From: Eledone cirrhosa | Lineage: Eukaryota | Assembly (NCBI GenBank): GCA_964016885.1 | Contig: OZ024766.1 | Location: 14,012,001 to 14,076,000 of the forward strand | Direction of reading: 5' to 3' | Length of the DNA stretch: 64,000 nt | Shown here: positions 3,454 to 62,944 of the stretch, in pieces | Layout of the letters: each line of letters begins with the position of its first letter | Numbering within the stretch: the stretch's first letter is position 1 | Made by a program: the position numbers and the translations under genes | Notes under the pieces: model-generated | Told to the model about the DNA's origin: nothing | What the model saw: only the letters and a program-made list of their open reading frames with translations | Databases searched by the model: none

Positions 3454-3591
3454 CTTTCTGACAACTGTTTCCTTCATAACCTGGAGCACATCTACCCCTT
3501 GAACAGATCCCTAATTCCACATTACACCTGTTGTTATCTTCACAATGACACACCTGATCACAGTTGGCACCAAGTCTTCCACTACTGCACA
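3454..3591 (-). CDS. EGF-like (MEGF10/Draper/SCARF-type) internal exon, copy 1
   Basis: Minus strand reads ...ctgat..aatgttttcctgttacAG|TGTGCAGT...CAGAAAG|GTtagt. 138 bp, phase 1-1. Encodes (V)CSSGRLGANCDQVCHCEDNNRCNVELGICSRGRCAPGYEGNSCQK with 8 Cys and two CxxGxxGxxC motifs. Confidence 0.9.
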
Positions 3592-3929
3592 CTGTAACAG
3601 GAAAACATTGGTGTAGATCAGGGATTGCCAACTTCTTTGCCTCCATGGGCCGGACGAACGCCATAAAAGAATAATTATGGAAAATTACACAAGCTAAAAT
3701 TTAATCTCGAGTGTCGACTATACTATTCATTTCTCAAATCTTGAATTATATTCACAAATACCTCTGAATCCTGTGCTTTCCCTCCTTGAAATGATGGAAA
3801 ATGCACATAATTTTTATTTCAAAGTTGATGTTCCCACAACTGTAGCTTTTTTTCAAAGGCAACAATATGGTTATACATTTCATTTACGAGCTGAGTTTTA
3901 CCTTGAAGTTGTAAATTTAAGTTATTTAA

Positions 3930-4150
3930 CCCTTTAGCACTTACATTACTCTATATTTACTATTGTAATGTCACAGTAAACACTTTATCTTATATAGTTA
4001 TCTCACATAATATTGAATCTATGAGATTTTGATAATATTTATTTTGAGAAGAATACCTTAACGTCAGTATGAGTGGCTAGTTACAGCCGGTTTGAACAGA
4101 AAAAAGTGAGAGATTTCTGGCCGGATATGGCCGGTTTAAATGCTAAAGGG
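3930..4150. mobile_element. 221-bp piggyBac-type MITE (TTAA target-site duplication, TIR CCCTTTAGCA)
   Basis: TTAA|ccctttagca ... tgctaaaggg|TTAA. Other copies start at 8651, 13143, 18349, 23266, 28728, 34535, 38510, 43941, 48702, 53288, 58437 and 63284. Confidence 0.8.
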
Positions 4151-4282
4151 TTAAACGAGTCACAATATCCTCAATAAATACCAAAGTTGTAACAGCAGGC
4201 CTTTTATTGTATTCGAAAGGAATAATACGTATTATTCTTTTATAATCTTTTATAATCTCTATAATTGTATTATTCTTTATCG

Positions 4283-4572
4283 AAAGGTTGTGAGTTCAAT
4301 TCTCAGACCGGGTAATGTGTTGTTTCCTTGAGCAAGACACTTTATTTCAAATTGCTCCAGTTTACTCAGCTGTAAAAATGAGATGATAGGGACTGGGGTC
4401 CCTATCATTCCACTGTAAAGTGGTCGTAGAGGTGCCACGGCAAAAAATCACCCAGCACTCACTGTAAATGAGGTTGGTTTTAGGAAGGGCATCAAGCTGT
4501 AGAAATCAAGCCAGAATCAGTTCCTGTCCCACTCTTGCAAGCAGGGAAAAGGGGACGTAAAATTAAATGATT
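4283..4572 (+). mobile_element. Degenerate tRNA-derived SINE(s) with a CORE-like segment
   Basis: B-box-like gagttcaattc, then ccttgagcaagacactt...ctcagctgtaaaaatgag (CORE-like, from recall), then a 3' part aggaagggcatc...ggacgtaaaatgaaatga. Internal hairpin tgatagggact/(g|a)gtccctatca. One per unit. Confidence 0.65.
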
Positions 4573-4780
4573 TCATAATTCAGGGGTTGATAAAATATAG
4601 TACCAGTGATATCCTGGAGTAGATTTAATAGAATAGCTTAACACACACTCACATATATATATATATCTACTAACCAAAGTATCGCGTGATCTGGTGCGTT
4701 ATGGTCCACCTCGTTCCTTACCATACTTCCTACAACACACACACACACACATATATAGATATATACTTATAAATATATAC

Positions 4781-5087
4781 AGAATAAGGAGCAGGTATTA
4801 CAATAACCTGGGGTTCAAGGGCCCTCACCTGTTCAACAAGCTGCCAAGGAATTTGAGAGATCTGCATGGTGTGGACGTGGATGTTTTCAAGGAACATCTC
4901 GACACCCTGTTACCAGGATCCTGGATGAGCCCACAGCATGGTTCGAAGGTAACCTAAGGGCAGCAACAACGAACCCCCTCTTTGCCGAATGGCCAACCAA
5001 CACAGGTTGGAGAAAGAATGTGTAACAAGGGCATGCCCCAGCATGGCCTCAACTGGATCGCTGGAACACGTTAAAAGAGTAAAAGAG
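4781..5087 (+). mobile_element. 5'-truncated LINE 3' end (CR1/L2-group-like ORF2 C-terminus and 3'UTR)
   Basis: Translates as FKGPHLFNKLPRNLRDL...VDVFKEHLDTLL, then frameshifted LDEP and RAATTNPL motifs typical of such ORF2 termini. Ends in a short tandem tail (taaaagag)2. Present in units 1-12. Confidence 0.75.
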
Positions 5088-5118
<31 letters not shown>

Positions 5119-5417
5119 TTATATTTATATTTCTGGCTATTTCTGGCTGTCGATGGTCCTATTCAGGCCACTGGGATGACGTTGTTCAACGAGTGTATTT
5201 TTAAAAAAATGCAACAAGTGGTTCATATCATTCGCAGATTTGCATTTGCTGTGTAAACGCAGATGGTTATTTTTCTTCTCATTTGGTGAACATCCAAGAA
5301 TTTAACTGCTGTGATTTACGGATTAATAGGTGAAATATATTTCTTACTTAAAGAGCCAGGAACCCAACGGCTGAGCTCCGGCCAGAGATCAGCAGTTGGG
5401 GTCCTGACTCTTTTCCT

Positions 5418-5461
<44 letters not shown>

Positions 5462-8173
5462 TATATTAATAAATGGAAACTATATTTATAAAACCATATT
5501 TATTTTATTATACATATTTCAAGGGCAACCAAGGCAAACTGTTGAGTGCTTTATATCAGTTATAAAAATGTTTAAGCTTATTGAATCCCAACAAATTAAA
5601 TATAACCTCTGCATATATATATATTTATATATATATATATAAATATATATAATACAACATTAGAATTACTACTACATTTTACTTTCTATCTCTGTCTCTC
5701 ACATCTCTTTCTCTCCCTCTATCTCCCTCTCTCGATATCCCTCTCTTTCTCTCACCCCCCTCTCTCTCTCTATCTCTCTCTATCTCTCCTCCTGTCTCTC
5801 CCATACACTTACCTAAGGTCATGTAATTTAACTGGGTGTGACTTTCTCTAAAAGTTAATACAAAGACTTGCTTTCAACTGACAGAAACATAGCTACAATG
5901 TTGCACACTCATATCATGTGTCTGTATGGCTGACTGCCAGAACTTCATACAGAAATAAAAAACCCCACACAACCAACATTCTGGGGTTGATAAAATATAA
6001 TTGTTTCTAATTATATTGACTAATTATATTTACTAATAATATTGACTAATAATATTGACTAATAATATTGACTAATTATATTGACTAATTATATTTACGA
6101 ATAATATTGACTAATAATATTGACTAATAATATTGACTAATTATATTGACTAATTATATTTACTAATAATATTGACTAATAATATTGACTAATAATATTG
6201 ACTAATTATATTGACTAATTATATTTACTAATAATATTGACTAATAATATTGACTAATAATATTGACTAATTATATTTACTAATAATATTGACTAATAAT
6301 ATTGACTTATTATATTGACTAATTATATTGACTAATTATATTGACTAATTATATTGACTAATTATATTGACTAATTATATTGACTAATAATATTGACTAA
6401 TTATATTTACTAATAATATTGACTAATTATATTGACTAATTATATTTACTAATAATATTTACTAATAATATTGACTAATTATATTGACGAATTATATTGA
6501 CTAATTATATTTACTAATTATATTGACTAATTATATTGACTAATTATATTTACTAATTATATTGACTAATTATATTTACTAATAATAGTAACTAATTATA
6601 TGAACTAATAATTGTTTCTACGTTAGGCACAAGGCCAGCAATTACCCAGTACATTACTGGTACTTTATTTTATCGACCCCGTAAGGATGAAAGGCAAAGT
6701 TAACCTCATTAACTAATTATATTGACTAATTATATTAACTAATAATATTAACTAATATTATCACCTAATAATATTAACTAATAACATTCACTAATTATAT
6801 TAACTAATAATATTAACTAATATTATCATCTAATAATATTCACTAATAATTTAAATAATTTTTACATTAGGCACAAGGCCAGCAATTACCCCAGTGTATT
6901 ACTGGTACTTTATTTTATCAACCCCGTAAGGATGAAAGGCAAAGTTAACCTCGGCGGGATTTGAATTAGTTAATATTATTCGGTGGATTGGCAGTATTGG
7001 TGGAGCGTCGGACGCCTTGCTTTGATGCATAGAGTTATATAATTAGTAAATATTATTAGTTAATATTATTAGTTAATATTATTTAGTTAATATTATTAGT
7101 TAATATTATTAGTCAATATAATTAGTTAATATTATTAGTTAATATAATTAGTTAATATTATTAGTTAATATTATTAGTCAATAATAATATTAATGGCAGT
7201 GGATTGGCAGTATCAGTGGAGGGTCGGACGCCATGCTTTGATGCATAGAGTTACGGCCCTTGCCATTCTGAGTTCAAATCCCACCGAGGTTAACTTTGCC
7301 TTTCATCCTTACGGAGTCGATAAAATAAAGTAGCAGTAATTCACTGGGGTAATTGCTGGCCTTGTGCCTAACGTAGAAACAATTATTAACTAATATTACT
7401 AACTAATAATATTGATTGTTGACTAGAAATTTAGAGATTATTTTAATGGTTTCTGATTTAGATGCAAGGCCAACACATTTGGGGAAGGGGTGTTGATTGA
7501 CCCCAGTGTGTTACTGGTACTTTATTTTATCAACCCAGTAAGGATGAAGGGCAAAGCTTACCTTGATGGGATTTGAACTCAGAACGTAAAGGGCCGTAAC
7601 TGGGTTCAAATCCTACTCAAGTTATAGCTCTGGCTTTCATCCTAACAGGGTTGATAAAGTAAAGTACCAGTAACGTACTGGGGTTGATAAAGTAAAGTAC
7701 CAGTAACGTACTGGGGTTGATAAAGTAAAGTACCAGTAATGTACTGGGGTTGATAAAATAAAGTACCAGTAACGTACTGGGGTTGATAAAGTAAAGTACC
7801 AGTAATATACTGGGGTTGATAAAGTAAAGTACCAGTAACGTACTGGGGTTGATAAAATAAAGTACCAGTAACGTACTGGAGTTGATAAAGTAAAGTACCA
7901 GTAATGTACGGGGGTTGATAAAGTAAAGTACCAGTAACGTACTGGGGTTGATAAAGTAAAGTACCAGTAATGTACTGGGGTTGATAAAGTAAAGTACCGG
8001 TAATGTACTGGGGTTGATAAAGTAAAGTACCAGTAACGTACTGGGGTTGATAAAATAAAGTACCAGTAACGTACTGGGGTTGATAAAGTAAACTACCAGT
8101 AATGTACTGGGGTTGATAAAATAAAGTACCTTGACTGGTGAGAGATAAAAGCTGAGATATGAAAATAACTAAC

Positions 8174-8311
8174 CTTTCTCACAACTGTTTCCTTCATAAC
8201 CTGGAGCACATCTACCCCTTGAACAGATCCCTAATTCCACATTACACCTGTTGTTATCTTCACAATGACACACCTGATCACAGTTGGCACCAAGTCTTCC
8301 ACTACTGCACA
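8174..8311 (-). CDS. EGF-like exon, copy 2 (Q>E variant)
   Basis: Same splice sites; one change at 8180 gives SCEK. Confidence 0.88.
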
Positions 8312-9807
8312 CTGTAACAGGAAAACATTGGTGTAGATCAGGGATTGGCAACTTCTTTGCCTCCATGGGCCGGACGAACGCCATAAAAGAATAATTATGG
8401 AAAATTACACAAGCTAAAATTTTTATCTCGAGTGTCGACTATACTATTCATTTCTCAAATCTTGAATTATATTCACAAATACCCCTGAATCCTGTGATTT
8501 CCCTCCTTGAAATGATGGAAAATGCACATAATTTTTATTTCAAAGTTGATGTTCCCACAACTGTAGCTTTTTTTCAAAGGCAACAATATGGTTATACATT
8601 TCATTTACGAGCTGAGTTTTACCTTGAAGTTGTAAATTTAAGTTATTTAACCCTTTAGCACTTACATTATTCTATATTTACTATTGTAGTTTCACAGTAA
8701 ACACTTTATCTTATATAGTTATCTCACATAATATTGAATCTATGAGATTTTGATATTATTTATTTTGAGAAGAATACCTTAACGTCAGTATGAGTGGCTA
8801 GTTACAGCCGGTTTGAACAGAAAAAAGTGAGAGATTTCTGGCCGGATATGGCCGGTTTAAATGCTAAAGGGTTAAACGAGTCACAATATCCTCAATAAAT
8901 ACCAAAGTTGTAACAGCAGGCCTTTTATTGTATTCGAAAGGAATAATACGTATTATTCTTTTAAAATCTTTTATAATCTCTATAATTGTATTATTCTTTA
9001 TCGAAAGGTTGTGAGTTCAATTCTCCGACCGGGTAATGTGTTGTTTCCTTGAGCAAACACTTTATTTCAAATTGCTCCAGTTTACTCAGCTGTAGAAATG
9101 AGATGATAGGGACTGGGGTCCCTATCATTCCACTGTAAAGTGGTCGTAGAGGTGCCACGGCAAAAAATCACCCAGCACTCACTGTAAATGAGGTTGGTTT
9201 TAGGAAGGGCATCAAGCTGTAGAAATCAAGCCAGAATCAGTTCCTGTCCCACTCTTGCAAGCAGGGAAAAGGGGACGTAAAATGAAATGATTTCATAATT
9301 CAGGGGTTGATAAAATATAGTACCAGTGATATCCTGGAGTAGATTTAATAGAATAGCTTAACACACACTCACATATATATATATATCTACTAACCAAAGT
9401 ATCGCGTGATCTGGTGCGTTATGGTCCACCTCGTTCCTTACCATACTTCCTACCACACACACACACACACATATATAGATATATACTTATAAATATATAC
9501 AGAATAAGGAGCAGGTATTACAATAACCTGGGGTTCAAGGGCCCTCACCTCTTCAACAAGCTGCCAAGGAATTTGAGAGATCTGCATGGTGTGGACGTGG
9601 ATGTTTTCAAGGAACATCTCGACACCCTGTTACCAGGATCCTGGATGAGCCCACAGCATGGTTCGAAGGTAACCTAAGGGCAGCAACAACGAACCCCCTC
9701 TTTGCCGAATGGCCAACCAACACAGGTTGGAGAAAGAATGTGTAACAAGGGCATGCCCCAGCATGGCCTCAACTGGATCGCTGGAACACGTTAAAAGAGT
9801 AAAAGAG

Positions 9808-9838
<31 letters not shown>

Positions 9839-10134
9839 TTATATTTATATTTCTGGCTATTTCTGGCTGTCGATGGTCCTATTCAGGCCACTGGGATGAC
9901 GTTCAACGAGTGTATTTTTAAAAAAATGCAACACGTGGTTCAAATCATTCGCAGATTTGCATTTGCTGTGTAAACGCAGATGGTTATTTTTCTTCTCATT
10001 TGGTGAACATCCAAGAATTTAACTGCTGTGATTTACGGATTAATAGGTGAAATATATTTCTTACTTAAAGAGCCAGGAACCCAACGGCTGAGCTCCGGCC
10101 AGAGATCAGCAGTTGGGGTCCTGACTCTTTTCCT

Positions 10135-10167
<33 letters not shown>

Positions 10168-10320
10168 AATAATATATTAATAAATGGAAACTATATTTAT
10201 AAAACCATATTTATTTTATTATACATATTTCAAGGGCAACCAAGGCAAACTGTTGAGTGCTTTATATCAGTTATAAAAATGTTTAAGCTTATTGAATCCC
10301 AACAAATTAAATATAACCTC

Positions 10321-10369
<49 letters not shown>

Positions 10370-11316
10370 ATAAATATATATAATACAACATTAGAATTAC
10401 TACTACATTTTACTTTCTATCTCTGTCTCTCACATCTCTTTCTCTCCCTCTATCTCCCTCTCTCGATATCCCTCTCTTTCTCTCACCCCCCTCTCTCTCT
10501 CTATCTCTCTCTATCTCTCCTCCTGTCTCTCCCATACACTTACCTAAGGTCATGTAATTTAACTGGGTGTGACTTTCTCAAAAGTTAATACAAAGACTTG
10601 CTTTCAACTGACAGAAACATAGCTACAATGTTGCACACTCATATCATGTGTCTGTATGGCTGACTGCCTGAACTTCATACAGAAATAAAAAACCCCACAC
10701 AACCAACATTCTGGGGTTGATAAAATATAATTGTTTCTAATTATATTGACTAATTATATTTACGAATAATATTGACTAATAATATTGACTAATTATATTG
10801 ACTAATTATATTTACTAATAATATTGACTAATAATATTGACTAATTATATTGACTAATTATATTGACTAATTATATTGACTAATTATATTTACTAATAAT
10901 ATTGACTAATAATATTGACTAATTATATTTACTAATAATATTGACTAATAATATTGACTTATTATATTGACTAATTATATTGACTAATTATATTGACTAA
11001 TTATATTGACTAATTATATTTACTAATAATATTGACTAATTATATTTACTAATAATATTGACTAATTATATTGACTAATTATATTGACTAATTATATTGA
11101 CTAATTATATTTACTAATAATATTGACTAATAATATTGACTAATTATATTGACTAATTATATTGACTAATTATATTTACTAATAATATTGACTAATAATA
11201 TTGACTAATTATATTGACGAATTATATTGACTAATTATATTTACTAATTATATTGACTAATTATATTGACTAATAATATTAACTAATAATATTAACTAAA
11301 TAATATTAACTATCAA

Positions 11317-11510
11317 GGGCGGTGGATTGGCAGTATCGGTATAAGGTCGGACGCCGTGCTTTCCAGCATAGTTACGTCCCTTTACGATCTGAGTTCAAAT
11401 CCCGCCGAGGTAGACTTTGCCTTTCATCCTTACGGGGTCGATAAAATAAAGTACCAGTTATGCACTGGGTAATTGCTGGCCTTGTGCCTAAAGTAGAAAC
11501 AATTATTAGT
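11317..11510 (+). mobile_element. Second full-length copy of the same SINE family, found only in 'type Y' units
   Basis: gggcggtggattggcagtatcggt...gagttcaaatcccgccgagg...gtagaaacaattatt. Also at about 21435-21628 and 51362-51555. Confidence 0.7.
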
Positions 11511-12670
11511 AAATATAATTAGTTAATATTATTAGTTAATATAATTAGTTAATATTATTAGTTAATATTATTAGTCAATAATAATATTAATGGCAGTGGA
11601 TTGGCAGTATCAGTGGAGGGTCGGACGCCATGCTTTGATGCATAGAGTTACGGCCCTTGCCATTCTGAGTTCAAATCCCACCGAGGTTAACTTTGCCTTT
11701 CATCCTTACGGGGTCGATAAAATAAAGTAGCAGTAATTCACTGGGGTAATTGCTGGCCTTGTGCCTAACGTAGAAACAATTATTAACTAATATTTCTAAC
11801 TAATAATATTGATTGTTGACTAGAAATTTAGAGATTATTTTAATGGTTTCTGATTTAGATGCAAGGCCAACACATTTGGGGAAGGGGTGTTGATTGACCC
11901 CAGTGTGTTACTGGTACTTTATTTTATCAACCCAGTAAGGATGAAAGGCAAAGCTTACCTTGATGGGATTTGAACTCAGAACGTAAAGGGCCGTAACTGG
12001 GTTCAAATCCTACTGAAGTTATAGCTCTGGCTTTCATCCTAACAGGGTTGATAAAGTAAAGTACCAGTAACGTACTGGGGTTGATAAAGTAAAGTACCTG
12101 TAACGTTCTTGGGTTGATAAAGTAAGGTACCAGTAATGTACTGGGGTTGATAAAGTAAAGTACCAGTAATGTACTGGGTTTGATAAAGTAAAGTACCAGT
12201 AACGTACTGGGGTTGATAAAGTAAAGTACCAGTAATGTACGGGGGGTTGATAAAGTAAGGTACCAGTAATGTACTGGGGTTGATAAAGTAAAGTACCAGT
12301 AATGTACTGGGGTTGATAAGGTAAAGTACCTGTAACGTTCTTGGGTTGATAAAGTAAGGTACCAGTAATGTACTGGGGTTGATAAAGTAAAGTACCAGTA
12401 ATGTACTGGGTTTGATAAAGTAAAGTATCAGTAACGTACTGGGGTTGATAAAGTAAAGTACCAGTAATGTACTGGGGTTGATAAAGTAAAGTACCAGTAA
12501 CGTACTGGTGTTGATAAAGTAAAGTACCAGTAAAGTACTGGGGTTGACAAAATAAAGTACCAGTAATGTACTGGGATTGATAAAATAAAGTACCAGTAAT
12601 GTACTGGGGTTGATAAAATAAAGTACCTGGAATGGTGAGAGATAAAAGCTGAGATATGAAAATAACTAAC

Positions 12671-12808
12671 CTTTCTGACAACTGTTTCCTTCATAACCTG
12701 GAGCACATCTACCCCTTGAACAGATCCCTAATTCCACATTACACCTGTTGTTATCTTCACAATGACACACCTGATCACAGTTGGCACCAAGTCTTCCACT
12801 ACTGCACA
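12671..12808 (-). CDS. EGF-like exon, copy 3
   Basis: Identical to copy 1; AG/GT intact. Confidence 0.88.
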
Positions 12809-14325
12809 CTGTAACAGGAAAACATTGGTGTAGATCAGGGATTGCCAACTTCTTTGCCTCCATGGGCCGGACGAACGCCATAAAAGAATAATTATGGAAA
12901 ATTACACAAGCTAACGTTTAATCTCGAGTGTTGACTATACTATTCATTTCTCAAATCTTGAATTATATTCACAAATACCTCTGAATCCTGTGATTTCCCT
13001 CCTTGAAATGATGGAAAATGCACATAATTTTTATTTCAAAGTTGATGTTCCCACAACTGTAGCTTTTTTTCAAATGTATATGGTTATACATTTCATTTAC
13101 GAGCTGAGTTTTACCTTGAAGTTGTAAATTTAAGTTATTTAACCCTTTAGCACTTACATTACTCTATATTTACTATTGTAATGTCACAGTAAACACTTTA
13201 TCTTATATAGTTATCTCACATAATATTGAATCTATGAGATTTTGATATTATTTATCTTGAGAAGAATACCTTAACGTCAGTATGAGTGGCTAGTTACAGC
13301 CGGTTTGAACAGAAAAAAGTGAGAGATTTCTGGCCGGATATGGCCGGTTTAAATGCTAAAGGGTTAAACGAGTCACAATATCCTCAATAAATACCAAAGT
13401 TGTAACAGCAGGCCTTTTATTGTATTCGAAAGGAATAATACGTATTATTCTTTTATAATCTTTTATAATCTCTATAATTGAATTATTCTTTATCGAAAGG
13501 TTGTGAGTTCAATTCTCCGACCGGTTAATGTGTTGTTTCCTTGAGCAAGACTCTTTATTTCAAATTGCTCCAGTTTACTCAGCTGTAGAAATGAGATGAT
13601 AGGGACTGGGGTCCCTATCATTCCACTGTAAAGTGGTCCTAGAGGTGCCACGGCAAAAAATCACCCAGCACTCACTGTAAATGAGGTTGGTTTTAGGAAG
13701 GGCATCAAGCTGTAGAAATCAAGCCAGAATCAGTTCCTGTCCCACTCTTGCAAGCAGGGAAAAGGGGACGTAAAATGAAATGATTTCATAATTCAGGGGT
13801 TGATAAAATATAGTACCAGTGATATCCTGGGGTAGATTTAATAGAATAGCTTAACTCGCACTCACATATATATATATCTACTAACCAAAGTATCGCGTGA
13901 TCTGGTGCGTTATGGTCCACCTCGTTCCTTACCATACTTCCTACCACACACACACACACACACATATATAGATATATACTTATAAATATATACAGAATAA
14001 GGAGCAGGTATTACAATAACCTGGGGTTCAAGGGCCCTCACCTCTTCAACAAGCTGCCAAGGAATTTGAGAGATCTGCATGGTGTGGACGTGGATGTTTT
14101 CAAGGAACATCTCGACACCCTGTTACCAGGATCCTGGATGAGCCCACAGCATGGTTCGAAGGTAACCTAAGGGCAGCAACAACGAACCCCCTCTTTGCCG
14201 AATGGCCAACCAACACAGGTTGGAGAAAGAATGTGTAACAAGAGCATGCCCCAGCATGGCCTCAACTGGATCGCTGGAACACGTTAAAAGAGAAAAAGAG
14301 AATATATATATATATATATACATAT

Positions 14326-14630
14326 AATGTAGGAGGTGAGTTTTATTGTGGTACAATAAAGCAATGCAGATATCGGATAAGAAGCACTCTACAGTTTGTA
14401 GGACTGGAGTATACATAATATAAGATCAAAAGATGGTTAAAGGAGTTCCATGTATTTTATTATGCGCATTTAAAACTGCACTATCCACAAGTGTTTTTTT
14501 AGCCTTCATATCATGTTCTCCTGTTTTATCTGATGAAAACACAAATATTATTGCATGATGATGTTTGTTTTTGAAATGCGCATAATAAAATACATGGAAC
14601 TCCTTTAACCATCTTTTGATCTTATATTAT
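14326..14630 (+). mobile_element. ~305-bp hammerhead-bearing cassette within (TA)n, probably a Penelope-like element pLTR or retrozyme fragment
   Basis: Also present at about 19530-19834, 24449-24753, 29908-30212, 35716-36020, 39689-39993 and 54471-54775. Empty sites at about 5105, 9825, 45115, 49870 and 59610. Contains the hammerhead motif and a 57-bp inverted repeat. The Penelope-like assignment is inferred. Confidence 0.6.
14515..14600 (+). ncRNA. Type I minimal hammerhead ribozyme motif
   Basis: Stem I tgttttat/ataaaata; core CTGATGA at 14530-14536; ~15-bp stem II at 14537-14572; GAAA at 14573-14576; palindromic stem III ATGCGCAT; AUA triplet with predicted cut after 14584. Confidence 0.75.
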
Positions 14631-14947
14631 ATTTACATATATATATATTTATATTTATATTTCTGGCTATTTCTGGCTGTCGATGGTCCTATTCAGGCCA
14701 CTGGGATGACGTTGTTCAACGAGTGTATTTTTAAAAAAATGCAACAAGTGGTTCAAATCATTCGCAGATTTGCATTTGCTGTGTAAACGCAGATGGTTAT
14801 TTTTCTTCTCATTTGGTGAACATCCAAGAATTTAACTGCTGTGATTTACGGATTAATAGGTGAAATATATTTCTTACTTAAAGAGCCAGGAACCCAACGG
14901 CTGAGCTCCGGCCAGAGATCAGCAGTTGGGGTCCTGACTCTTTTCCT

Positions 14948-15016
<69 letters not shown>

Positions 15017-17872: not shown

Positions 17873-18010
17873 CTTTCTGACAACTGTTTCTTTCATAACC
17901 TGGAGCACATCTACCCCTTGAACAGATCCCTAATTCCACATTACACCTGTTGTTATCTTCACAATGACACACCTGATCACAGTTGGCACCAAGTCTTCCA
18001 CTACTGCACA
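17873..18010 (-). CDS. EGF-like exon, copy 4 (G>R variant)
   Basis: Change at 17891 gives GYERNSC; AG/GT intact. Confidence 0.86.
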
Positions 18011-19499: not shown

Positions 19500-19532
<33 letters not shown>

Positions 19533-20151: not shown

Positions 20152-20202
<51 letters not shown>

Positions 20203-48224: not shown

Positions 48225-48362
48225 CTTTCTCACAACTGTTTCCTTCATAACCTGGAGCACATCTACCCCTTGAACAGATCCCTAATTCCACATTACACCT
48301 GTTGTTATCTTCACAATGACACACCTGATCACAGTTGGCACCAAGTCTTCCACTACTGCACA
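48225..48362 (-). CDS. EGF-like exon, copy 10 (Q>E variant)
   Basis: Change at 48231, same as copy 2. Confidence 0.88.
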
Positions 48363-49852: not shown

Positions 49853-49883
<31 letters not shown>

Positions 49884-50179
49884 TTATATTTATATTTCTG
49901 GCTATTTCTGGCTGTCGATGGTCCTATTCAGGCCACTGGGATGACGTTCAACGAGTGTATTTTTAAAAAAATGCAACACGTGGTTCAAATCATTCGCAGA
50001 TTTGCATTTGCTGTGTAAACGCAGATGGTTATTTTTCTTCTCATTTGGTGAACATCCAAGAATTTAACTGCTGTGATTTACGGATTAATAGGTGAAATAT
50101 ATTTCTTACTTAAAGAGCCAGGAACCCAACGGCTGAGCTCCGGCCAGAGATCAGCAGTTGGGGTCCTGACTCTTTTCCT

Positions 50180-50221
<42 letters not shown>

Positions 50222-50369
50222 TATATTAATAAATGGAAACTATATTTATAAAACCATATTTATTTTATTATACATATTTCAAGGGCAACCAAGGCAAACT
50301 GTTGAGTGCTTTATATCAGTTATAAAAATGTTTAAGCTTATTGAATACCAACAAATTAAATATAACCTC

Positions 50370-50414
<45 letters not shown>

Positions 50415-52815: not shown

Positions 52816-52953
52816 CTTTCTGACAACTGTTTCCTTCATAACCTGGAGCACATCTACCCCTTGAACAGATCCCTAATTCCACATTACACCTGTTGTTATC
52901 TTCACAATGACACACCTGATCACAGTTGGCACCAAGTCTTCCACTACTGCACA
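52816..52953 (-). CDS. EGF-like exon, copy 11
   Basis: Identical to copy 1. Confidence 0.88.
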
Positions 52954-54659
52954 CTGTAACAGGAAAACATTGGTGTAGATCAGGGATTGCCAACTTCTTT
53001 GCCTCCATGGGCCGGACGAACGCCATAAAAGAATAATTATGGAAAATTACACAAGCTAAAATTTAATCACGAGTGTTGACTATACTATTCATTTCTCAAA
53101 TCTTGAATTATATTCACAAATACCTCAGAATCCTGTGATTTCCCTCCTTGAAATGATGGAAAATGCACATAATTTTTATTTCAAAGTTGATGTTCCCACA
53201 ACTGTAGCTTTTTTTCAAATGTATATGGTTATACATTTCATTTACGAGCTGAGTTTTACCTTGAAGTTGTAAATTTAAGTTATTTAACCCTTTAGCACTT
53301 ACATTACTCTATATTTACTATTGTAATGTCACAGTAAACACTTTATCTTATATAGTTATCTCACATAATATTGAATCTATGAGATTTTGATATTATTTAT
53401 TTTGAGAAGAATACCTTAACGTCAGTATGAGTGGCTAGTTACAGCCGGTTTGAACAGAAAAAAGTGAGAGATTTCTGGCCGGATATGGCCGGTTTAAATG
53501 CTAAAGGGTTAAACGATTCACAATATCCTCAATAAATACCAAAGTTGTAACAGCAGGCCTTTTATTGTATTCGAAAGGAATAATACGTATTATTCTTTTA
53601 TAATCTTTTATAATCTCTATAATTGTATTATTCTTTATCGAAAGGTTGTGAGTTCAATTCTCCGACCGGGTAATGTGTTGTTTCCTTGAGCAAGACACTT
53701 TATTTCAAATTGCTCCAGTTTACTCAGCTGTAGAAATGAGATGATAGGGACTGGGGTCCCTATCATTCCACTGTAAAGTGGTCCTAGAGGTGCCACGGCA
53801 AAAAATCACCCAGCACTCACTGTAAATGAGGTTGGTTTTAGGAAGGGCATCAAGCTGTAGAAATCAAGCCAGAATCAGTTCCTGTCCCACTCTTGCAAGC
53901 AGGGAAAAGGGGACGTAAAATGAAATGATTTCATAATTCAGGGGTTGATAAAATATAGTACCAGTGATATCCTGGGGTAGATTTAATAGAATAGCTTAAC
54001 TCGCACTCACATATATATATATCTACTAACCAAAGTATCGCGTGATCTGGTGCGTTATGGTCCACCTCGTTCCTTACCATACTTCCTACCACACACACAC
54101 ACACACACATATATAGATATATACTTATAAATATATACAGAATAAGGAGCAGGTATTACAATAACCTGGGGTTCAAGGGCCCTCACCTCTTCAACAAGCT
54201 GCCAAGGAATTTGAGAGATCTGCATGGTGTGGACGTGGATGTTTTCAAGGAACATCTCGACACCCTGTTACCAGGATCCTGGATGAGCCCACAGCATGGT
54301 TCGAAGGTAACCTAAGGGCAGCAACAACGAACCCCCTCTTTGCCGAATGGCCAACCAACACAGGTTGGAGAAAGAATGTGTAACAAGAGCATGCCCCAGC
54401 ATGGCCTCAACTGGATCGCTGGAACACGTTAAAAGAGAAAAAGAGAATATATATATATATATATACATATAATGTAGGAGGTGAGTTTTATTGTGGTACA
54501 ATAAAGCAATGCAGATATCGGATAAGAAGCACTCTACAGTTTGTAGGACTGGAGTATACATAATATAAGATCAAAAGATGGTTAAAGGAGTTCCATGTAT
54601 TTTATTATGCGCATTTAAAACTGCACTATCCACAAGTGTTTTTTTAGCCTTCATATCAT

Positions 54660-54745
54660 GTTCTCCTGTTTTATCTGATGAAAACACAAATATTATTGCA
54701 TGATGATGTTTGTTTTTGAAATGCGCATAATAAAATACATGGAAC
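54660..54745 (+). ncRNA. Type I minimal hammerhead ribozyme motif
   Basis: Same sequence as 14515-14600. Confidence 0.75.
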
Positions 54746-55092
54746 TCCTTTAACCATCTTTTGATCTTATATTATATTTACATATATATATATTTATATT
54801 TATATTTCTGGCTATTTCTGGCTGTCGATGGTCCTATTCAGGCCACTGGGATGACGTTGTTCAACGAGTGTATTTTTAAAAAAATGCAACAAGTGGTTCA
54901 AATCATTCGCAGATTTGCATTTGCTGTGTAAACGCAGATGGTTATTTTTCTTCTCATTTGGTGAACATCCAAGAATTTAACTGCTGTGATTTACGGATTA
55001 ATAGGTGAAATATATTTCTTACTTAAAGAGCCAGGAACCCAACGGCTGAGCTCCGGCCAGAGATCAGCAGTTGGGGTCCTGACTCTTTTTCT

Positions 55093-55157
<65 letters not shown>

Positions 55158-57959
55158 ACGAAGGAAATGTGGTAAGGAACCAGGTGGACCATAACGCACC
55201 AAAGTACTCAATACTTGAGGTGGTAGAGTGGGTAATAGGAACCTTATTATATATTTATATATATATATATATAAATAATATATTAATAAATGGAAACTAT
55301 ATTTATAAAACCATATTTATTTTATTATACATATTTCAAGGGCAACCAAGGCAAACTGTTGAGTGCTTTATATCAGTTATAAAAATGTTTAAGCTTATTG
55401 AATCCCAACAAATTAAATATAACCTCTGCATATATATATATTTATATATATATATATAAATTTATATAATACAACATTAGAATTACTACTACATTTTACT
55501 TTCTATCTCTGTCTCTCACATCTCTTTCTCTCCCTCTATCTCCCTCTCTCGATATCCCTCTCTTTCTCTCACCCCCCTCTCTCTCTCTATCTCTCTCTAT
55601 CTCTCCTCCTGTCTCTCCCATACACTTACCTAAGGTCATGTAATTTAACTGGGTGTGACTTTCTCAAAAGTTAATACAAAGACTTGCTTTCAACTGACAG
55701 AAACATAGCTACAATGTTGCACACTCATATCATGTGTCTGTATGGCTGACTGCCTGAACTTCATACAGAAATAAAAAACCCCACACAACCAACATTCTGG
55801 GGTTGATAAAATATAATTGTTTCTAATTATATTGACTAATTATATTTACGAATAATATTGACTAATAATATTGACTAATTATATTGACTAATTATATTTA
55901 CTAATAATATTGACTAATAATATTGACTAATTATATTGACTAATTATATTTACTAATAATATTGACTAATAATATTGACTAATTATATTTACTAATAATA
56001 TTGACTAATAATATTGACTTATTATATTGACTAATTATATTGACTAATTATATTGACTAATTATATTGACTAATTATATTTACTAATAATATTGACTAAT
56101 TATATTTACTAATAATATTGACTAATAATATTGACTAATTATATTGACTAATTATATTGACTAATTATATTGACTAATTATATTGACTAATTATATTTAC
56201 TAATAATATTGACTAATTATATTTACTAATAATATTGACTAATTATATTGACTAATTATATTGACTAATTATATTGACTAATTATATTTACTAATAATAT
56301 TGACTAATAATATTGACTAATTATATTGACTAATTATATTTACTAATTATATTGACTAATTATATTGACTAATTATATTGACTAATTATATTGACTAATT
56401 ATATTGACTAATTATATTTACTAATAATAGTAACTAATTATATGAACTAATAATTATTTCTACATTAGCCACAAGGCCAGCAATTACCCAGTACATTACT
56501 GGTACTTTATTTTATCGACCCCGTAAGGATGAAAGGCAAAGTTAACCTCATTAACTAATTATATTGACTAATAATATTAACTAATTATATTGACTAATTA
56601 TATTAACTAATAATATTAACTAATATTATCACCTAATAATATTAACTAATAACATTCACTAATTATATTAACTAATAATATTAACTAATATTATCAACTA
56701 ATAATATTCATTAATAATTTAAATAATTTTTACATTAGGCACAAGGCCAGCAATTACCCCAGTGTATTACTGGTACTTTATTTTATCAACCCCGTAAGGA
56801 TGAAGGGCAAAGTTAACCTCGGCGGGATTTGAATTAGTTAATATTATTCGGTGGATTGGCAGTATCGGTGGAGCGTCGGACGCCATGCTTTGATGCATAG
56901 AGTTACGGCCCTTAGTCAATATAATTAGTAAATATTATTAGTTAATATTATTAGTTAATATAATTAGTTAATATTATTAGTTAATATAATTAGTTAATAT
57001 TATTAGTTAATATTATTAGTTAATATAATTAGTTAATATTATTAGTTAATATTATTAGTTAATATAATTAGTTAATATTATTAGTTAATATAATTAGTTA
57101 ATATTATTAGTTAATATTATTAGTTAATATAATTAGTTAATATTATTAGTTAATATTATTAGTTAATATTATTAGTCAATATAATTAGTTAATATTATTA
57201 ATTAATATAATTAGTTAATATTATTAGTCAATAATAACATTAATGGCAGTGGATTGGCAGTATCAGTGGAGGGTGGGACGCCATGCTTTGATGCATAGAG
57301 TTACGGCCCTTGCCATTCTGAGTTCAAATCCCACCGAGGTTAACTTTGCCTTTCATCCTTACGGGGTCGATAAAATAAAGTAGCAGTAATTCACTGGGGT
57401 AATTGCTGGCCTTGTGCCTAACGTAGAAACAATTATTAACTAATATTTCTAACTAATAATATTGATTGTTGACTAGAAATTTAGAGATTATTTTAATGGT
57501 TTCTGATTTAGATGCAAGGCCAACACATTTGGGGAAGGGGTGTTGATTGACCCCAGTGTGTTACTGGTACTTTATTTTATCAACCCAGTAAGGATGAAGG
57601 GCAAAGCTTACCTTGATGGGATTTGAACTCAGAACGTAAAGGGCCGTAACTGGGTTCAAATCCTACTGAAGTTATAGCTCTGGCTTTCATCCTAACAGGG
57701 TTGATAAAGTAAAGTACCAGTAACGTACTGGGGTTGATAAAGTAAAGTACCAGTAACGTACTGGGGTTGATAAAGTAAAGTACCAGTAACGTACTGGGGT
57801 TGATAAAGTAAAGTACCAGTAACGAACTGGGGTTGATAAAGTAAACTACCAGTAATGTACTGGGGTTAATAAAATAAAGTACCAGTAATGTACTGGGGTT
57901 GATAAAATAAAGTACCTGGACTGGTGAGAGATAAAAGCTGAGATATGAAAATAACTAAC

Positions 57960-58097
57960 CGTTCTGACAACTGTTTCTTTCATAACCTGGAGCACATCTA
58001 CCCCTTGAACAGATCCCTAATTCCACATTACACCTGTTGTTATCTTCACAATGACACACCTGATCACAGTTGGCACCAAGTCTTCCACTACTGCACA
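57960..58097 (-). CDS. EGF-like exon, copy 12 (G>R and K>N variant)
   Basis: Changes at 57978 and 57961; the second is the -2 position of the donor (AAG|GT > ACG|GT). Confidence 0.84.
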
Positions 58098-59592
58098 CTG
58101 TAACAGGAAAACATTGGTGTAGATCAGGGATTGCCAACTTCTTTGCCTCCACGGGCCGGACGAACGCCATAAAAGAATAATTATGGAAAATTACACAAGC
58201 TAAAATTTTTATCTCGAGTGTCGACTATACTATTCATTTCTCAAATCTTGAATTATATTCACAAATACCTCTGAATCCTGTGATTTCCCTCCTTGAAATG
58301 ATGGAAAATGCACATAATTTTTATTTCAAAGTTGATGTTCCCACAACTGTAGCTTTTTTTCAAAGGCAACAATATGGTTATACATTTCATTTACGAGCTG
58401 AGTTTTACCTTGAAGTTGTAAATTTAAGTTATTTAACCCTTTAGCACTTACATTACTCTATATTTACTATTGTAATGTCACAGTAAACACTTTATCTTAT
58501 ATAGTTATCTCACATAATATTGAATCTATGAGATTTTGATAATATTTATTTTGAGAAGAATACCTTAACGTCAGTATGAGTGGCTAGTTACAGCCGGTTT
58601 GAACAGAAAAAAGTGAGAGATTTCTGGCCGGATATGGCCGGTTTAAATGCTAAAGGGTTAAACGAGTCACAATATCCTCAATAAATACCAAAGTTGTAAC
58701 AGCAGGCCTTTTATTGTATTCGAAAGGAATAATACGTATTATTCTTTTATAATCTTTTATAATCTCTATAATTGTATTATTCTTTATCGAAAGGTTGTGA
58801 GTTCAATTCTCAGACCGGGTAATGTGTTGTTTCCTTGAGCAAGACACTTTATTTCAAATTGCTCCAGTTTACTCAGCTGTAGAAATGAGATGATAGGGAC
58901 TGGAGTCCCTATCATTCCACTGTAAAGTGGTCGTAGAGGTGCCACGGCAAAAAATCACCCAGCACTCACTGTAAATGAGGTTGGTTTTAGGAAGGGCATC
59001 AAGCTGTAGAAATCAAGCCAGAATCAGTTCCTGTCCCACTCTTGCAAGCAGGGAAAAGGGGACGTAAAATGAAATGATTTCATAATTCAGGGGTTGATAA
59101 AATATAGTACCAGTGATATCCTGGAGTAGATTTAATAGAATAGCTTAACACACACTCACATATATATATATATCTACTAACCAAAGTATCGCGTGATCTG
59201 GTGCGTTATGGTCCACCTCGTTCCTTACCATACTTCCTACAACACACACACACATATATAGATATATACTTATAAATATATACAGAATAAGGAGCAGGTA
59301 TTACAATAACCTGGGGTTCAAGGGCCCTCACCTCTTCAACAAGCTGCCAAGGAATTTGAGAGATCTGCATGGTGTGGACGTGGATGTTTTCAAGGAACAT
59401 CTCGACACCCTGTTACCAGGATCCTGGATGAGCCCACAGCATGGTTCGAAGGTAACCTAAGGGCAGCAACAACGAACCCCCTCTTTGCCGAATGGCCAAC
59501 CAACACAGGTTGGAGAAAGAATGTGTAACAAGGGCATGCCCCAGCATGGCCTCAACTGGATCGCTGGAACACGTTAAAAGAGTAAAAGAGAA

Positions 59593-59623
<31 letters not shown>

Positions 59624-59922
59624 TTATATTTATATTTCTGGCTATTTCTGGCTGTCGATGGTCCTATTCAGGCCACTGGGATGACGTTGTTCAACGAGTG
59701 TATTTTAAAAAAAATGCAACAAGTGGTTCAAATCATTCGCAGGTTTGCATTTGCTGTGTAAACGCAGATGGTTATTTTTCTTCTCATTTGGTGAACATCC
59801 AAAAATTTAACTGCTGTGATTTACGGATTAATAGGTGAAATATATTTCTTACTTAAAGAGCCAGGAACCCAACAGCTGAGCTCTGGCCAGAGATCAGCAG
59901 TTGGGGTCCTGACTCTTTTCCT

Positions 59923-60007
<85 letters not shown>

Positions 60008-60098
60008 TATAACAAAGGAAATGTGGTAAGGAACCAGGTGGACCATAACGCACCAAAGTACTCAATACTTGAGGTAGTAGAGTGGGTAATAGGAACCT

Positions 60099-60134
<36 letters not shown>

Positions 60135-62806
60135 TATATTAATAAATGGAAACTATATTTATAAAACCATATTTATTTTATTATACATATTTCAAGGGCA
60201 ACCAAGGCAATCTGTTGAGTGCTTTATATCAGTTATAAAAATGTTTAAGCTTATTGAATCCCAACAAATTAAATATAACCTCTGCATATATATATATTTA
60301 TATATATATATATAAATATATATAATACAACATTAGAATTACTACTACATTTTACTTTCTATCTCTGTCTCTCACATCTCTTTCTCTCCCTCTATCTCCC
60401 TCTCTCGATATCCCTCTCTTTCTCTCACCCCCCCTCTCTCTCTCTATCTCTCTCTATCTCTCCTCCTGTCTCTCCCATACACTTACCTAAGGTCATGTAA
60501 TTTAACTGGGTGTGACTTTCTCTAAAAGTTAATACAAAGACTTGCTTTCAACTGACAGAAACATAGCTACGATGTTGCACACTCATATCATGTGTCTGTA
60601 TGGCTGACTGCCTGAACTTCATACAGAAATAAAAAACCCACACAACCAACATTCTGGGGTTGATAAAATATAATTGTTTCTAATTATATTGACTAATTAT
60701 ATTTACTAATAATATTGAGTAATAATATTGACTAATTATATTTACTAATAATATTGACTAATTATATTTACTAATAATATTGACTAATTATATTTACTAA
60801 TAATATTGACTAATTATATTGACTAATTATATTGACTAATTATATTTACTAATAATAGTAACTAATTATATGAACTAATAATTGTTTCTACGTTAGGCAC
60901 AAGGCCAGCAATAACCCAGTACATTACTGGTACTTTATTTTATCGACCCCGTAAGGATGAAAGGCAAACTTAACCTCATTAACTAATTATATTGACTAAT
61001 TATATTAACTAATAATATTAACTAATATTATCACCTAATAATATTAACTAATAACATTCACTAATTATATTAACTAATAATATTAACTAATATTATCAAC
61101 TAATAATATTCACTAATAATATTCACTAATATTATCAACTAATAACATTCACTAATTATATTGACTAATAATATTAACTAATAATATTCACTAATAATAT
61201 TCACTAATAATTTAAATAATTTTTACATTAGGCACAAGGCCAGCAATTTTCCCAGTGTATTACTGGTACTTTATTTTATCAACCCCGTAAGGATGAAAGG
61301 CAAAGTTAACCTCGGCGGGATTTCAATTAGTTAATATTATTCGGTGGATTGGCAGTATCGGTGGAGCGTCGGACGCCATGCTTTGATGCATAGAGTTATA
61401 TAATTAGTAAATATTATTAGTTAATATTATTAGTTAATATTATTAGTTAATATAATTAGTTAATATTATTAGTTAATATTATTAGTTAATATTATTAGTT
61501 AATATAATTAGTTAATATAATTAGTTAATATTATTAGTTAATATTATTAGTTAATATTATTAGTTAATATAATTAGCTAATATTATTAGTTAATATTATT
61601 AGTTAATATAATTAGTTAATATTATTAGTTAATATTATTAGTTAATATTATTAGTTAATATAATTAGTTAATATTATTAGTTAATATTATTAGTTAATAT
61701 TATTAGTTAATATTATTAGTTAATATAATTAGTTAATATTATTACTTAATATTATTAGTCAATATAATTAGTTAATATTATTAGTTAATATTATTAGTTA
61801 ATATTATTAGTCAATAATAATATTAATGGCAGTGGATTGGCAGTATCAGTGGAGGGTCGGACGCCATGCTTTGATGCATAGAGTTACGGCCCTTGCCATT
61901 CTGAGTTCAAATCCCACCGAGGTTAACTTTGCCTTTCATCCTTACGGAGTCGATAAAATAAAGTAGCAGTAATTCACTGGGGTAATTGCTGGCCTTGTGC
62001 CTAACGTAGAAACAATTATTAACTAATATTACTAACTAATAATATTGATTGTTGACTAGAAATTTAGAGATTATTTTAATGGTTTCTGATTTAGATGCAA
62101 GGCCAACACATTTGGGGAAGGGGTGTTGATTGACCCCAGTGTGTTACTGGTACTTTATTTTATCAACCCAGTAAGGATGAAGGGCAAAGCTTACCTTGAT
62201 GGGATTTGAACTCAGAACGTAAAGGGCCGTAACTGGGTTCAAATCCTACTCAAGTTATAGCTCTGGCTTTCATCCTAACAGGGTTGATAAAGTAAAGTAC
62301 CAGTAACGTACTGGGGTTGATAAAGTAAAGTACCAGTAACGTACTGGGGTTGATAAAGTAAAGTACCAGTAATGTACTGGGGTTGATAAAATAAAGTACC
62401 AGTAACGTACTGGGGTTGATAAAGTAAAGTACCAGTAATATACTGGGGTTGATAAAGTAAAGTACCAGTAACGTACTGGGGTTGATAAAATAAAGTACCA
62501 GTAACGTACTGGAGTTGATAAAGTAAAGTACCAGTAATGTACGGGGGTTGATAAAGTAAAGTACCAGTAACGTACTGGGGTTGATAAAGTAAAGTACCAG
62601 TAATGTACTGGGGTTGATAAAGTAAAGTACCGGTAATGTACTGGGGTTGATAAAGTAAAGTACCAGTAACGTACTGGGGTTGATAAAATAAAGTACCAGT
62701 AACGTACTGGGGTTGATAAAGTAAACTACCAGTAATGTACTGGGGTTGATAAAATAAAGTACCTTGACTGGTGAGAGATAAAAGCTGAGATATGAAAATA
62801 ACTAAC

Positions 62807-62944
62807 CTTTCTCACAACTGTTTCCTTCATAACCTGGAGCACATCTACCCCTTGAACAGATCCCTAATTCCACATTACACCTGTTGTTATCTTCACAATG
62901 ACACACCTGATCACAGTTGGCACCAAGTCTTCCACTACTGCACA
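62807..62944 (-). CDS. EGF-like exon, copy 13 (Q>E variant)
   Basis: Change at 62813, same as copies 2 and 10. Confidence 0.88.

What the first reader, a model, noticed from the sequence alone, without database searches (positions are those of the whole stretch)
3454..62944. Intragenic 'exon satellite': at least 13 nearly identical symmetric EGF exons, one per ~5-kb tandem unit
Seen: every unit has one 138-bp phase 1-1 exon with intact AG/GT sites, a CTGAT branch-like motif about 27 nt upstream and no stop codon. Joining exon to exon (G|TG = Val) gives a seamless (VCSSG...SCQK)n polymer. Seven copies are identical. I see no promoter, signal-peptide, transmembrane or terminal exon in the unit, so this is not a gene cluster. 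Known: this Cys pattern matches the MEGF10/Draper/SCARF-type repeats of invertebrate engulfment and recognition receptors, whose repeats are usually strongly diverged. Inference: this is a receptor whose ectodomain length is set by a ~5-kb-unit VNTR spanning over 60 kb. Because all exons are symmetric, any subset can be skipped in frame, allowing allelic or splice-generated length diversity.
Basis: partly seen in the sequence, partly recalled or inferred. Interest (0 to 1): 0.85.

Follow-up and report, generated by a model that had tools for sequence, protein, structure and literature searches.

The report
Spliced orphan-exon satellite in an octopus
A 5-kb DNA repeat carrying one receptor exon stands 27 times in a row, and its exon appears joined head to tail in one sequencing run that is likely RNA, but the array lies in a headless, tailless partial copy of a receptor gene from another chromosome, so it likely makes non-coding RNA rather than a variable-length receptor.

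Summary
In detail: 13 intact 138-nt EGF exons, one per 4.0-5.8-kb unit, 7 identical. The array has 27 full copies over 131 kb; about 80 copies lie on four contigs, in blocks of 1, 3, 13, 21 and 27. One public run (type unrecorded, likely RNA) holds the exon-to-exon junction, which was not found in the assembly or a DNA-like run. It also holds a second junction, to a cryptic acceptor present in every unit and followed by a stop after 35 codons.

The receptor reading fails. The parent gene (53 EGF exons, galactose-binding domain, single-copy transmembrane candidate) lies on C22 with one copy of this exon. Only its middle ~76 kb was duplicated. The window's array lacks the upstream exons and seven downstream ones. 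Duplicates diverge about neutrally (56 nonsynonymous, 16 synonymous; p=0.55), and all 35 duplicate copies examined replace a near-invariant Phe.

Best reading (0.65): a transcribed, spliced exon macrosatellite in a decaying partial duplicate. It resembles LPA KIV-2 in build but lacks the flanking coding exons. Earlier scan notes describe related lectin-EGF genes on other DNA of this genome, not this array.

The parts
1..64000 (-). Part of array A, a ~5-kb-unit macrosatellite (27 full units, 131 kb, G000:C27:13.985-14.116 Mb); the window lies wholly inside it
62807..62944 (-). EGF exon X copy (Q>E variant)
57960..58097 (-). EGF exon X copy (G>R and K>N; donor -2 position changed)
52816..52953 (-). 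EGF exon X copy (commonest type)
48225..48362 (-). EGF exon X copy (Q>E)
43464..43601 (-). EGF exon X copy (commonest type)
38033..38170 (-). EGF exon X copy (commonest type)
34058..34195 (-). EGF exon X copy (invariant Cys changed to Trp)
28251..28388 (-). EGF exon X copy (commonest type)
22789..22926 (-). EGF exon X copy (commonest type)
17873..18010 (-). EGF exon X copy (invariant Gly changed to Arg)
12671..12808 (-). EGF exon X copy (commonest type)
8174..8311 (-). EGF exon X copy (Q>E)
3454..3591 (-). EGF exon X copy (commonest type); reference copy on which the contigs were laid
4736..5060 (-). Cryptic exon C: acceptor at 5060, stop codon at 4956-4954. A 355-nt contig of X4 has 30 nt of exon X and 325 nt beyond; 30 of those letters were shown and match 5060-5031, the rest is inferred by length
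9674..9780 (-). Cryptic exon C, acceptor to stop codon
14167..14273 (-). Cryptic exon C, acceptor to stop codon
19367..19473 (-). Cryptic exon C, acceptor to stop codon
24290..24396 (-). Cryptic exon C, acceptor to stop codon
29751..29857 (-). Cryptic exon C, acceptor to stop codon
35559..35665 (-). Cryptic exon C, acceptor to stop codon
39536..39642 (-). Cryptic exon C, acceptor to stop codon
44961..45067 (-). Cryptic exon C, acceptor to stop codon
49719..49825 (-). Cryptic exon C, acceptor to stop codon
54312..54418 (-). Cryptic exon C, acceptor to stop codon
59457..59563 (-). Cryptic exon C, acceptor to stop codon
3592..4220 (-). The only part of the upstream intron shared with the parent gene (about 630 bp); beyond 4220 the unit carries sequence foreign to the parent
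4221..6009 (.). Foreign, repeat-rich flank shared by the C19 and C27 arrays; contains exon C. The unit junction lies at about 6005-6010
6007..8130 (.). Downstream-intron part of the next unit: 13-bp and 33-bp minisatellites, whose length differences account for much of the unit-size variation

Best explanation
The window is part of a 27-unit macrosatellite that carries one EGF exon per unit inside a partial, headless and tailless duplicate of a receptor gene on C22; the array is likely transcribed and spliced, and likely yields non-coding RNA rather than a receptor. Steps: (1) shown: the middle ~76 kb of the C22 gene was copied to many places, without its N-terminal EGF exon, last 12 EGF exons and transmembrane candidate. 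(2) shown: in one sub-lineage (C19, C27) everything beyond 630 bp upstream of exon X is foreign, repeat-rich DNA that contains a cryptic acceptor (C). (3) inferred: a ~5-kb tandem duplication of X with its flanks was expanded by unequal crossing-over to 3, 13, 21 and 27 copies, which placed C downstream of every X donor. (4) shown in one run's contigs, RNA nature inferred: X joins to X and X joins to C. (5) inferred: each unit offers an exit into a stop codon, so most transcripts carry a few EGF exons, lack a signal peptide and membrane anchor, and are not under selection as protein.
For: Parent on C22 with one X, 53 open AG/GT-bounded EGF exons and a transmembrane candidate found at 1 place. 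Duplicated segment maps to parent 1,669,019-1,745,314. The galactose-binding exon pattern has 19 matches and the last duplicated EGF exon 33. Array A: nearest upstream family exons are an orphan E0/F1 pair 176 kb away; E14-E20 are missing before the next exon 80 kb downstream. Against the parent, 127 duplicate exon copies show 56 nonsynonymous and 16 synonymous distinct variants (ratio 0.84, p=0.55 against neutrality), 7 Cys losses, 1 stop and 7 frameshifted copies. The F2 donor is dead in 2 of 4 duplicate copies. All 35 full duplicate X copies examined carry F6L, at a column that is Phe in 12 of 13 aligned exons; 5 of the 8 further amino-acid variants hit invariant or near-invariant Gly/Cys columns. 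X4 contigs of 58 nt (30+28) and 140 nt (3454-3593), with breaks at 3483 and 3564, match a k=31 simulation of X-X plus X-C joining; parent-type splicing predicts 142 nt and 3566. Neither junction is in the assembly or among the 4 laid contigs of DNA-like run X1.
Against: All 35 full X copies examined keep AG/GT and an open frame, and exon divergence is lower than intron divergence (0.007 vs 0.011-0.015; Fisher p=0.51). The neutrality test has low power, counts variants rather than events, and may mix similar exons (E6, E10). The expression evidence is one run of unrecorded type. Its junction contigs have 30 and 28 letters on the two sides, below the tool's 31-letter rule for a bridge. Contigs cannot say which array (C19 or C27) made the RNA, or whether it is linear or circular. 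The 5' start of the transcript was not found, so an unrecognised signal-peptide exon is not excluded.
Confidence: 0.65

Rival explanations
1. The array is the coding core of a new chimeric gene. An unrecognised upstream exon supplies a start and signal peptide, and the per-unit choice between exon X and exon C yields a ladder of secreted poly-EGF proteins, each ending in the same 35-residue Cys-rich tail.
For: Both junctions are in X4. All 35 X copies examined are open with intact splice sites. The C tail is open for 35 codons in 12 of 12 units. F1, 176 kb upstream, is phase-compatible with X.
Against: No credible signal-peptide exon in the 176 kb upstream; the ORFs read in the nearest 59 kb look like transposon remnants (read by eye, output partly cut). 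No junction into X from another exon among the 7 X4 contigs laid. Variants hit conserved Gly/Cys/Phe. The two in-frame ATGs just upstream of X give no hydrophobic leader.
Confidence: 0.12
2. The X-X junction is a back-splice (circular RNA), or comes mainly from the three-copy C19 arrays, and the window's array is largely silent.
For: A head-to-tail junction of identical exons looks the same for linear and circular RNA. The C acceptor also occurs in the C19 arrays (8 of 69 matches).
Against: 61 of 69 C acceptors and 58 of 75 exact X matches lie on C27. The X-C junction is a forward splice that needs tandem units. Common unit variants (Q44E, G40R, C22W) were seen only in C27 copies among those fetched, but contigs collapse variants, so this was not testable.
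Confidence: 0.13
3. One reading: one membrane receptor whose ectodomain length is set by this VNTR.
For: Symmetric intact exons; X-X joining seen; family EGF exons lie downstream on the same strand.
Against: The transmembrane candidate was found once, on C22. No convincing phase-1 transmembrane exon in 195 kb downstream of array A (26 weak hydrophobic candidates, hydropathy at most 2.36 against 3.28 for the homologue's helix). No PTP profile hit in any fetched region and none of 72 PF00102 matches near the loci. A rough 27% exit per unit would let about 2 in 10,000 transcripts cross all units (contig depth is a poor measure).
Confidence: 0.04
4. The array length and the many paralogous blocks are inflated by misassembly or retained haplotypes.
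For: Blocks are 98-100% identical and lie among satellites. No long reads were seen.
Against: Units differ by 1-1.5% and in minisatellite length, each with its own spacing. Tandem units are needed for the X-C junction seen in sample S2.
Confidence: 0.06

Closest known systems
[quoted passage not shown]
   Same: Unit of about 5.5 kb with near-identical exons (98-100%) for a Cys-rich module; tens of tandem copies; derived by duplication from a parent gene.
   Different: KIV-2 has two exons per unit and lies inside a translated gene with flanking coding exons. Here there is one exon per unit, no leader, anchor or C-terminal exon was found, and every unit carries a stop-containing alternative exon. 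Variation between individuals was not tested.
LPAL2-type transcribed partial-duplicate pseudogene (PMC7613587, one passage read)
   Same: Expressed, unprocessed partial duplicate holding repeat-module exons of its parent.
   Different: Here one exon went on to form a macrosatellite of up to 27 units in at least three large arrays, and the duplicates are spread over several chromosomes.
Molluscan MEGF/galactose-binding-domain receptor-like tyrosine phosphatases (Biomphalaria sudanica SudRes1, PMC12297450, passages read; Octopus sinensis XP_036365016)
   Same: Same EGF module and exon phase. The C22 parent has EGF, galactose-binding, EGF repeats and a transmembrane candidate in the same order. 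Paralogue clusters are typical of the family.
   Different: The window's array is an isolated fragment. No PTP domain was found for the parent within 111 kb downstream of its transmembrane candidate.
Branchiostoma belcheri KAI8487025 and Liolophura XP_064596704 predicted receptors
   Same: Runs of near-identical EGF modules of this type inside predicted receptors.
   Different: There the homogenised repeats lie inside gene models with membrane and signalling domains; their genomic unit sizes were not examined.

Membership tests
Molluscan MEGF/GBD receptor-like PTP | Multiple EGF modules | tested here: met
   best hit O. sinensis XP_036365016, E=5e-145 for the exon profile, 58% identity to X.
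Molluscan MEGF/GBD receptor-like PTP | Galactose-binding (F5/8 C) domain in the same gene | tested here: not met
   Array A has only an orphan first half (F1) 176 kb upstream, without F2. The C22 parent has F1 and F2; F1 matches PF22633 at E=2.9e-4, below cut-off, and F2 alone gave no Pfam match.
Molluscan MEGF/GBD receptor-like PTP | Single transmembrane segment | tested here: not met
   None convincing downstream of array A. A candidate lies at C22:1,788,774-1,788,845 and was found at one place only.
Molluscan MEGF/GBD receptor-like PTP | Intracellular PTP domain | tested here: not met
   0 of 72 PF00102 matches near any family locus; best E=5.4 with a 48-sequence PTP profile over all regions.
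MEGF10/Draper/SCARF engulfment receptors | N-terminal EMI domain (feature recalled) | tested here: inconclusive
   No direct EMI search. tblastn with homologues that include Draper, PEAR1 and MEGF10-named proteins found only EGF and galactose-binding exons.
MEGF10/Draper/SCARF engulfment receptors | Membrane anchor with signalling tail (feature recalled) | tested here: not met
   Not found at the array locus. The parent's tail exons were not identified.
LPA KIV-2-type coding VNTR | Multi-kb tandem unit with near-identical exons | tested here: met
   Units 3,975-5,807 bp; exon p-distance 0.007.
LPA KIV-2-type coding VNTR | Units spliced head to tail in frame | tested here: inconclusive
   Junction contig in one run, exact k=31 geometry, but 30+28 letters (below the 31-letter rule), run type unrecorded, and linear versus circular not resolved.
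LPA KIV-2-type coding VNTR | Unique leader and C-terminal coding exons flanking the array | tested here: not met
LPA KIV-2-type coding VNTR | Copy number polymorphic between individuals; protein isoform size follows copy number | not testable with these tools
   Only paralogous blocks within one assembly were counted (1, 3, 13, 21, 27).
Transcribed unprocessed partial-duplicate pseudogene | Truncated copy of an intact parent, introns kept | tested here: met
Transcribed unprocessed partial-duplicate pseudogene | Disabling changes and relaxed selection | tested here: met
   7 of 127 exon copies frameshifted, 1 stop, 7 Cys losses, ratio 0.84 with p=0.55; donor lost in 2 of 4 F2 copies. The X copies themselves have no frameshift or stop.
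Transcribed unprocessed partial-duplicate pseudogene | Transcribed but not translated into a functional protein | not testable with these tools
   Transcription is inferred from X4; no ribosome or peptide data.

The most novel reading that the evidence does not exclude
A self-terminating exon satellite: every 5-kb unit offers both another EGF module and a stop-bearing exit exon, so one locus makes a ladder of soluble poly-EGF proteins of 1 to 27 modules with a common Cys-rich tail. These could act as decoys for the C22 lectin-EGF receptor, with the length distribution set by splice choice and array size.
Probability: 0.12. Interest if true: 0.85.

Novelty: new variant of a known kind. Interest (0 to 1): 0.45.

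Why it matters
It shows a single receptor exon leaving its gene and becoming a spliced macrosatellite of about 80 copies within a short time (parent to duplicates 96-98% identical, duplicates about 99%). It also shows how a tandem duplication moved an upstream cryptic acceptor downstream of every donor, creating a per-unit stop option. That is a clean natural case for asking how KIV-2-like coding VNTRs start and whether they begin as neutral passengers. It warns that such arrays will be annotated as giant receptors. If the RNA were translated and secreted it would be a new way to make length-graded recognition proteins in a cephalopod, but the evidence leans against that.

Tried and rejected
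Homologue searches with the single exon and with the first galactose-binding exon found nothing; both are weak evidence. No RNA holder was listed for the stretch; X4's type is unrecorded. X17 (guessed RNA, another organism) had no contig on the exon. X4 has no contig at window 4190-4234 where X1 has one; a hole proves nothing, so whether exon C is terminal or runs on to the next X stays open. X5 and X6 (organisms B, C) hold the exon at depth about 3 and X7 (organism D) at about 65; contig depth is no copy number and the samples may be mixtures, so nothing was concluded about other species. X4 shows more A>G places than X1 (21 vs 10); taken as a hint of RNA only. Helitron capture was considered because a Helitron (PF14214, PF05970) follows the last duplicated exon; rejected because it has its own termini about 4.5 kb beyond the parent-derived edge. 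A signal-peptide-like ORF at C20:5,289,183 was rejected: the stretch recurs in 5 of 5 units checked, within what looks like repeat-derived DNA. A signal-peptide candidate for the parent at C22:1,640,136 is doubtful because its 3' part overlaps a common repeat. A hydrophobic stretch after the last C20 exon was rejected as intronic. The idea that the 14 C20 units form one receptor found no leader or anchor between units or at the ends fetched. The LINE-like origin of exon C (antisense to a stretch resembling a LINE ORF2 end) is recalled; Pfam gave no match. Literature searches found no description of such an array in a cephalopod; subscription papers are not covered. No structure or complex prediction was run.
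Full report
Observation. The window is a tandem array with units of 3,975-5,807 bp. Each of 13 units has a 138-nt minus-strand exon (X) between AG and GT, open in phase 1-1 and encoding an 8-Cys EGF-type module. Seven copies are identical; the four variable sites are all nonsynonymous. Units also hold 13-bp and 33-bp minisatellites of varying length.

Extent. The window is G000:C27:14,012,001-14,076,000. An exact pattern at the exon start has 75 matches: 12 on C19 (four loci of three), 5 on C20 (single copies) and 58 on C27. Fetching gaps added four variant copies on C27 and one on C22. The C27 blocks then hold 13, 27 (array A, the window's), 21 and 1 full copies, about 80 in the genome. Not every gap was fetched, so these are lower bounds. 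Arrays A and B share flanks over tens of kb on both sides, so they are paralogous segmental duplicates with different unit numbers. The genome is taken to be an octopus from the best protein hit and earlier notes.

Family. A profile of 13 related exons hits O. sinensis XP_036365016 best; it has a galactose-binding domain, EGF repeats, a transmembrane helix and a PTP domain. This architecture is described for Biomphalaria MEGF/GBD receptor phosphatases (PMC12297450, passages read). Near-identical EGF runs also occur in Branchiostoma and chiton gene models, so homogenised repeats of this module are not unique.

The parent. Family exons occur at many places: 19 matches for the first galactose-binding exon and 33 for exon E21. 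On C20 they form tandem units of about 110-125 kb with no leader or anchor found between them. Of the loci fetched, only C22 continues beyond E21. It has an N-terminal EGF exon at 1,663,980, both galactose-binding exons, 53 open AG/GT-bounded EGF exons by motif count, and a transmembrane candidate at 1,788,774. That candidate was found at one place; the other 40 matches cover only an adjacent repeat. The parent has one X, which differs from the duplicates at two codons. The duplicated part maps to parent 1,669,019-1,745,314 and so excludes the N-terminal exon, the last 12 EGF exons and the anchor. No PTP was found near the parent or any duplicate, and the parent's leader and tail exons remain unidentified.

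Context of array A. Only about 630 bp upstream of X comes from the parent. Beyond that lies a flank shared by the C19 and C27 arrays, whose ORFs look like transposon remnants by eye. The nearest upstream family exons are an orphan E0/F1 pair 176 kb away, with F2 and E1-E12 missing. Downstream come a truncated X, no E14-E20, and E21 80 kb on. A scan of 195 kb downstream gave 26 weak hydrophobic candidates, none convincing.

Selection. Against the parent, 127 duplicate exon copies show 56 nonsynonymous and 16 synonymous distinct variants (ratio 0.84; p=0.55 against neutrality), 7 Cys losses, one stop and 7 frameshifted copies. A count against a C20 reference gave 47 and 15 (p=0.43). All 35 full duplicate X copies examined carry F6L and S31R. 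F6 is Phe in 12 of 13 aligned exons, and 5 of 8 further X variants hit invariant or near-invariant Gly or Cys. On the other side, none of the 35 has a stop, frameshift or lost splice dinucleotide, and exon divergence is lower than intron divergence, though not significantly. The test is weak.

Expression. No holder was on record as RNA. Run X4 (organism A, sample S2, type unrecorded) has a 140-nt contig covering exactly 3454-3593, at depth 145 against 22-30 for the flanking intron contigs; run X1 has one contig across exon and intron. X4 also has a 58-nt contig made of the last 30 and first 28 nt of X, and a 355-nt contig joining the last 30 nt of X to sequence whose first 30 letters match window 5060-5031. 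A k=31 graph simulation of genomic DNA plus X-X and X-C joins reproduces 58, 140, and the breaks at 3483 and 3564; parent-type splicing predicts 142 and 3566. Neither junction is in the assembly. Caveats: it is one run; the sides are 30 and 28 letters, under the tool's 31-letter rule (k=31 geometry cannot give more here); the joint table itself listed none; linear and circular RNA look alike; and the source array is not resolved. The X4 contig matches the duplicate version of X at both parent-diagnostic sites.

The cryptic exon. The acceptor at 5060 has a pyrimidine tract and is followed by a stop after 35 codons in 12 of 12 window units. Its context has 69 matches, all at the C19 and C27 arrays. 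It lies upstream of the first X in each array checked, so tandem duplication is what put it downstream of an X donor (inferred). Taking contig depths 69 and 26 at face value, about 27% of splices exit per unit, giving about 3.6 X copies per transcript; this is a rough figure only.

Mechanism and verdict. Partial duplication of a C22 lectin-EGF receptor gene, loss of the 5' part in one sub-lineage, tandem duplication of one exon, and expansion by unequal crossing-over (inferred) produced a spliced macrosatellite with a stop option in each unit and no leader or anchor found. In build it is closest to LPA KIV-2 (PMC7613587, passages read; PMC11462820, start of abstract), and in status to LPAL2-like expressed partial duplicates. 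Six searches (listings only) found no account of such an array in a cephalopod. No supplements were read; gene lists in those of PMC12297450 could bear on family naming. Earlier scan notes describe related lectin-EGF genes elsewhere in this genome; look-ups by place, sequence and words returned nothing for this array.

Noticed in passing
G000:C22:1,713,794-1,724,983 (L164:3794 to L165:4983): Inside the open parent gene, 18 tandem EGF exons at mostly 0.4-0.7 kb spacing with 93% mean identity; the C20 duplicate examined has three at this place, two of them frameshifted. A better candidate for a receptor with variable ectodomain length.
   Followed up: partly
G000:C20:3.48-5.30 Mb (L021-L030, L041-L060, L101-L120): Fourteen tandem units of about 100-220 kb spacing, each a partial copy of the C22 gene, bounded by satellite DNA at both ends; exon content differs between units.
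   Followed up: partly
L038:8066 to L039:3907 (C19:35,438,066-35,443,907): A young Helitron (Rep and PIF1 helicase frames broken by single stops) followed by a short related element, carried by the duplicates downstream of E21, next to a LINE.
   Followed up: partly
L027:9395-10000 region and L060 (C20:4,070,780 downwards; 4,189,500-4,200,000): Minisatellites derived from the 3' part of EGF exons (54-bp and 38-bp type units) expanded inside introns of the duplicates, up to more than 10 kb.
   Followed up: no
L010:1999-2085 (C27:13,981,999-13,982,085): A 5'-truncated X copy (nt 52-138) without acceptor ends array A.
   Followed up: partly
G000:C27:14,505,468-14,599,671: Spacings in array B repeat after about 46.5 kb and partly match those of array A (5.20, 4.92, 5.46 kb), which suggests a higher-order duplication and shared unit types.
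   Followed up: no
L158 region, C23:28,964,428-28,995,532 (L157-L160): A duplicate with a locally repeated exon pair and an in-frame stop in one EGF exon.
   Followed up: no
L152-L153 equivalent not applicable; C22:1,761,361-1,761,543 (L147:1361-1543): One parent EGF exon carries an in-frame poly-Gly insertion (183 nt instead of 138).
   Followed up: no
window 3646-3664, minus strand: Two in-frame ATGs in the intron just upstream of X would open a frame into the exon without a signal peptide.
   Followed up: partly
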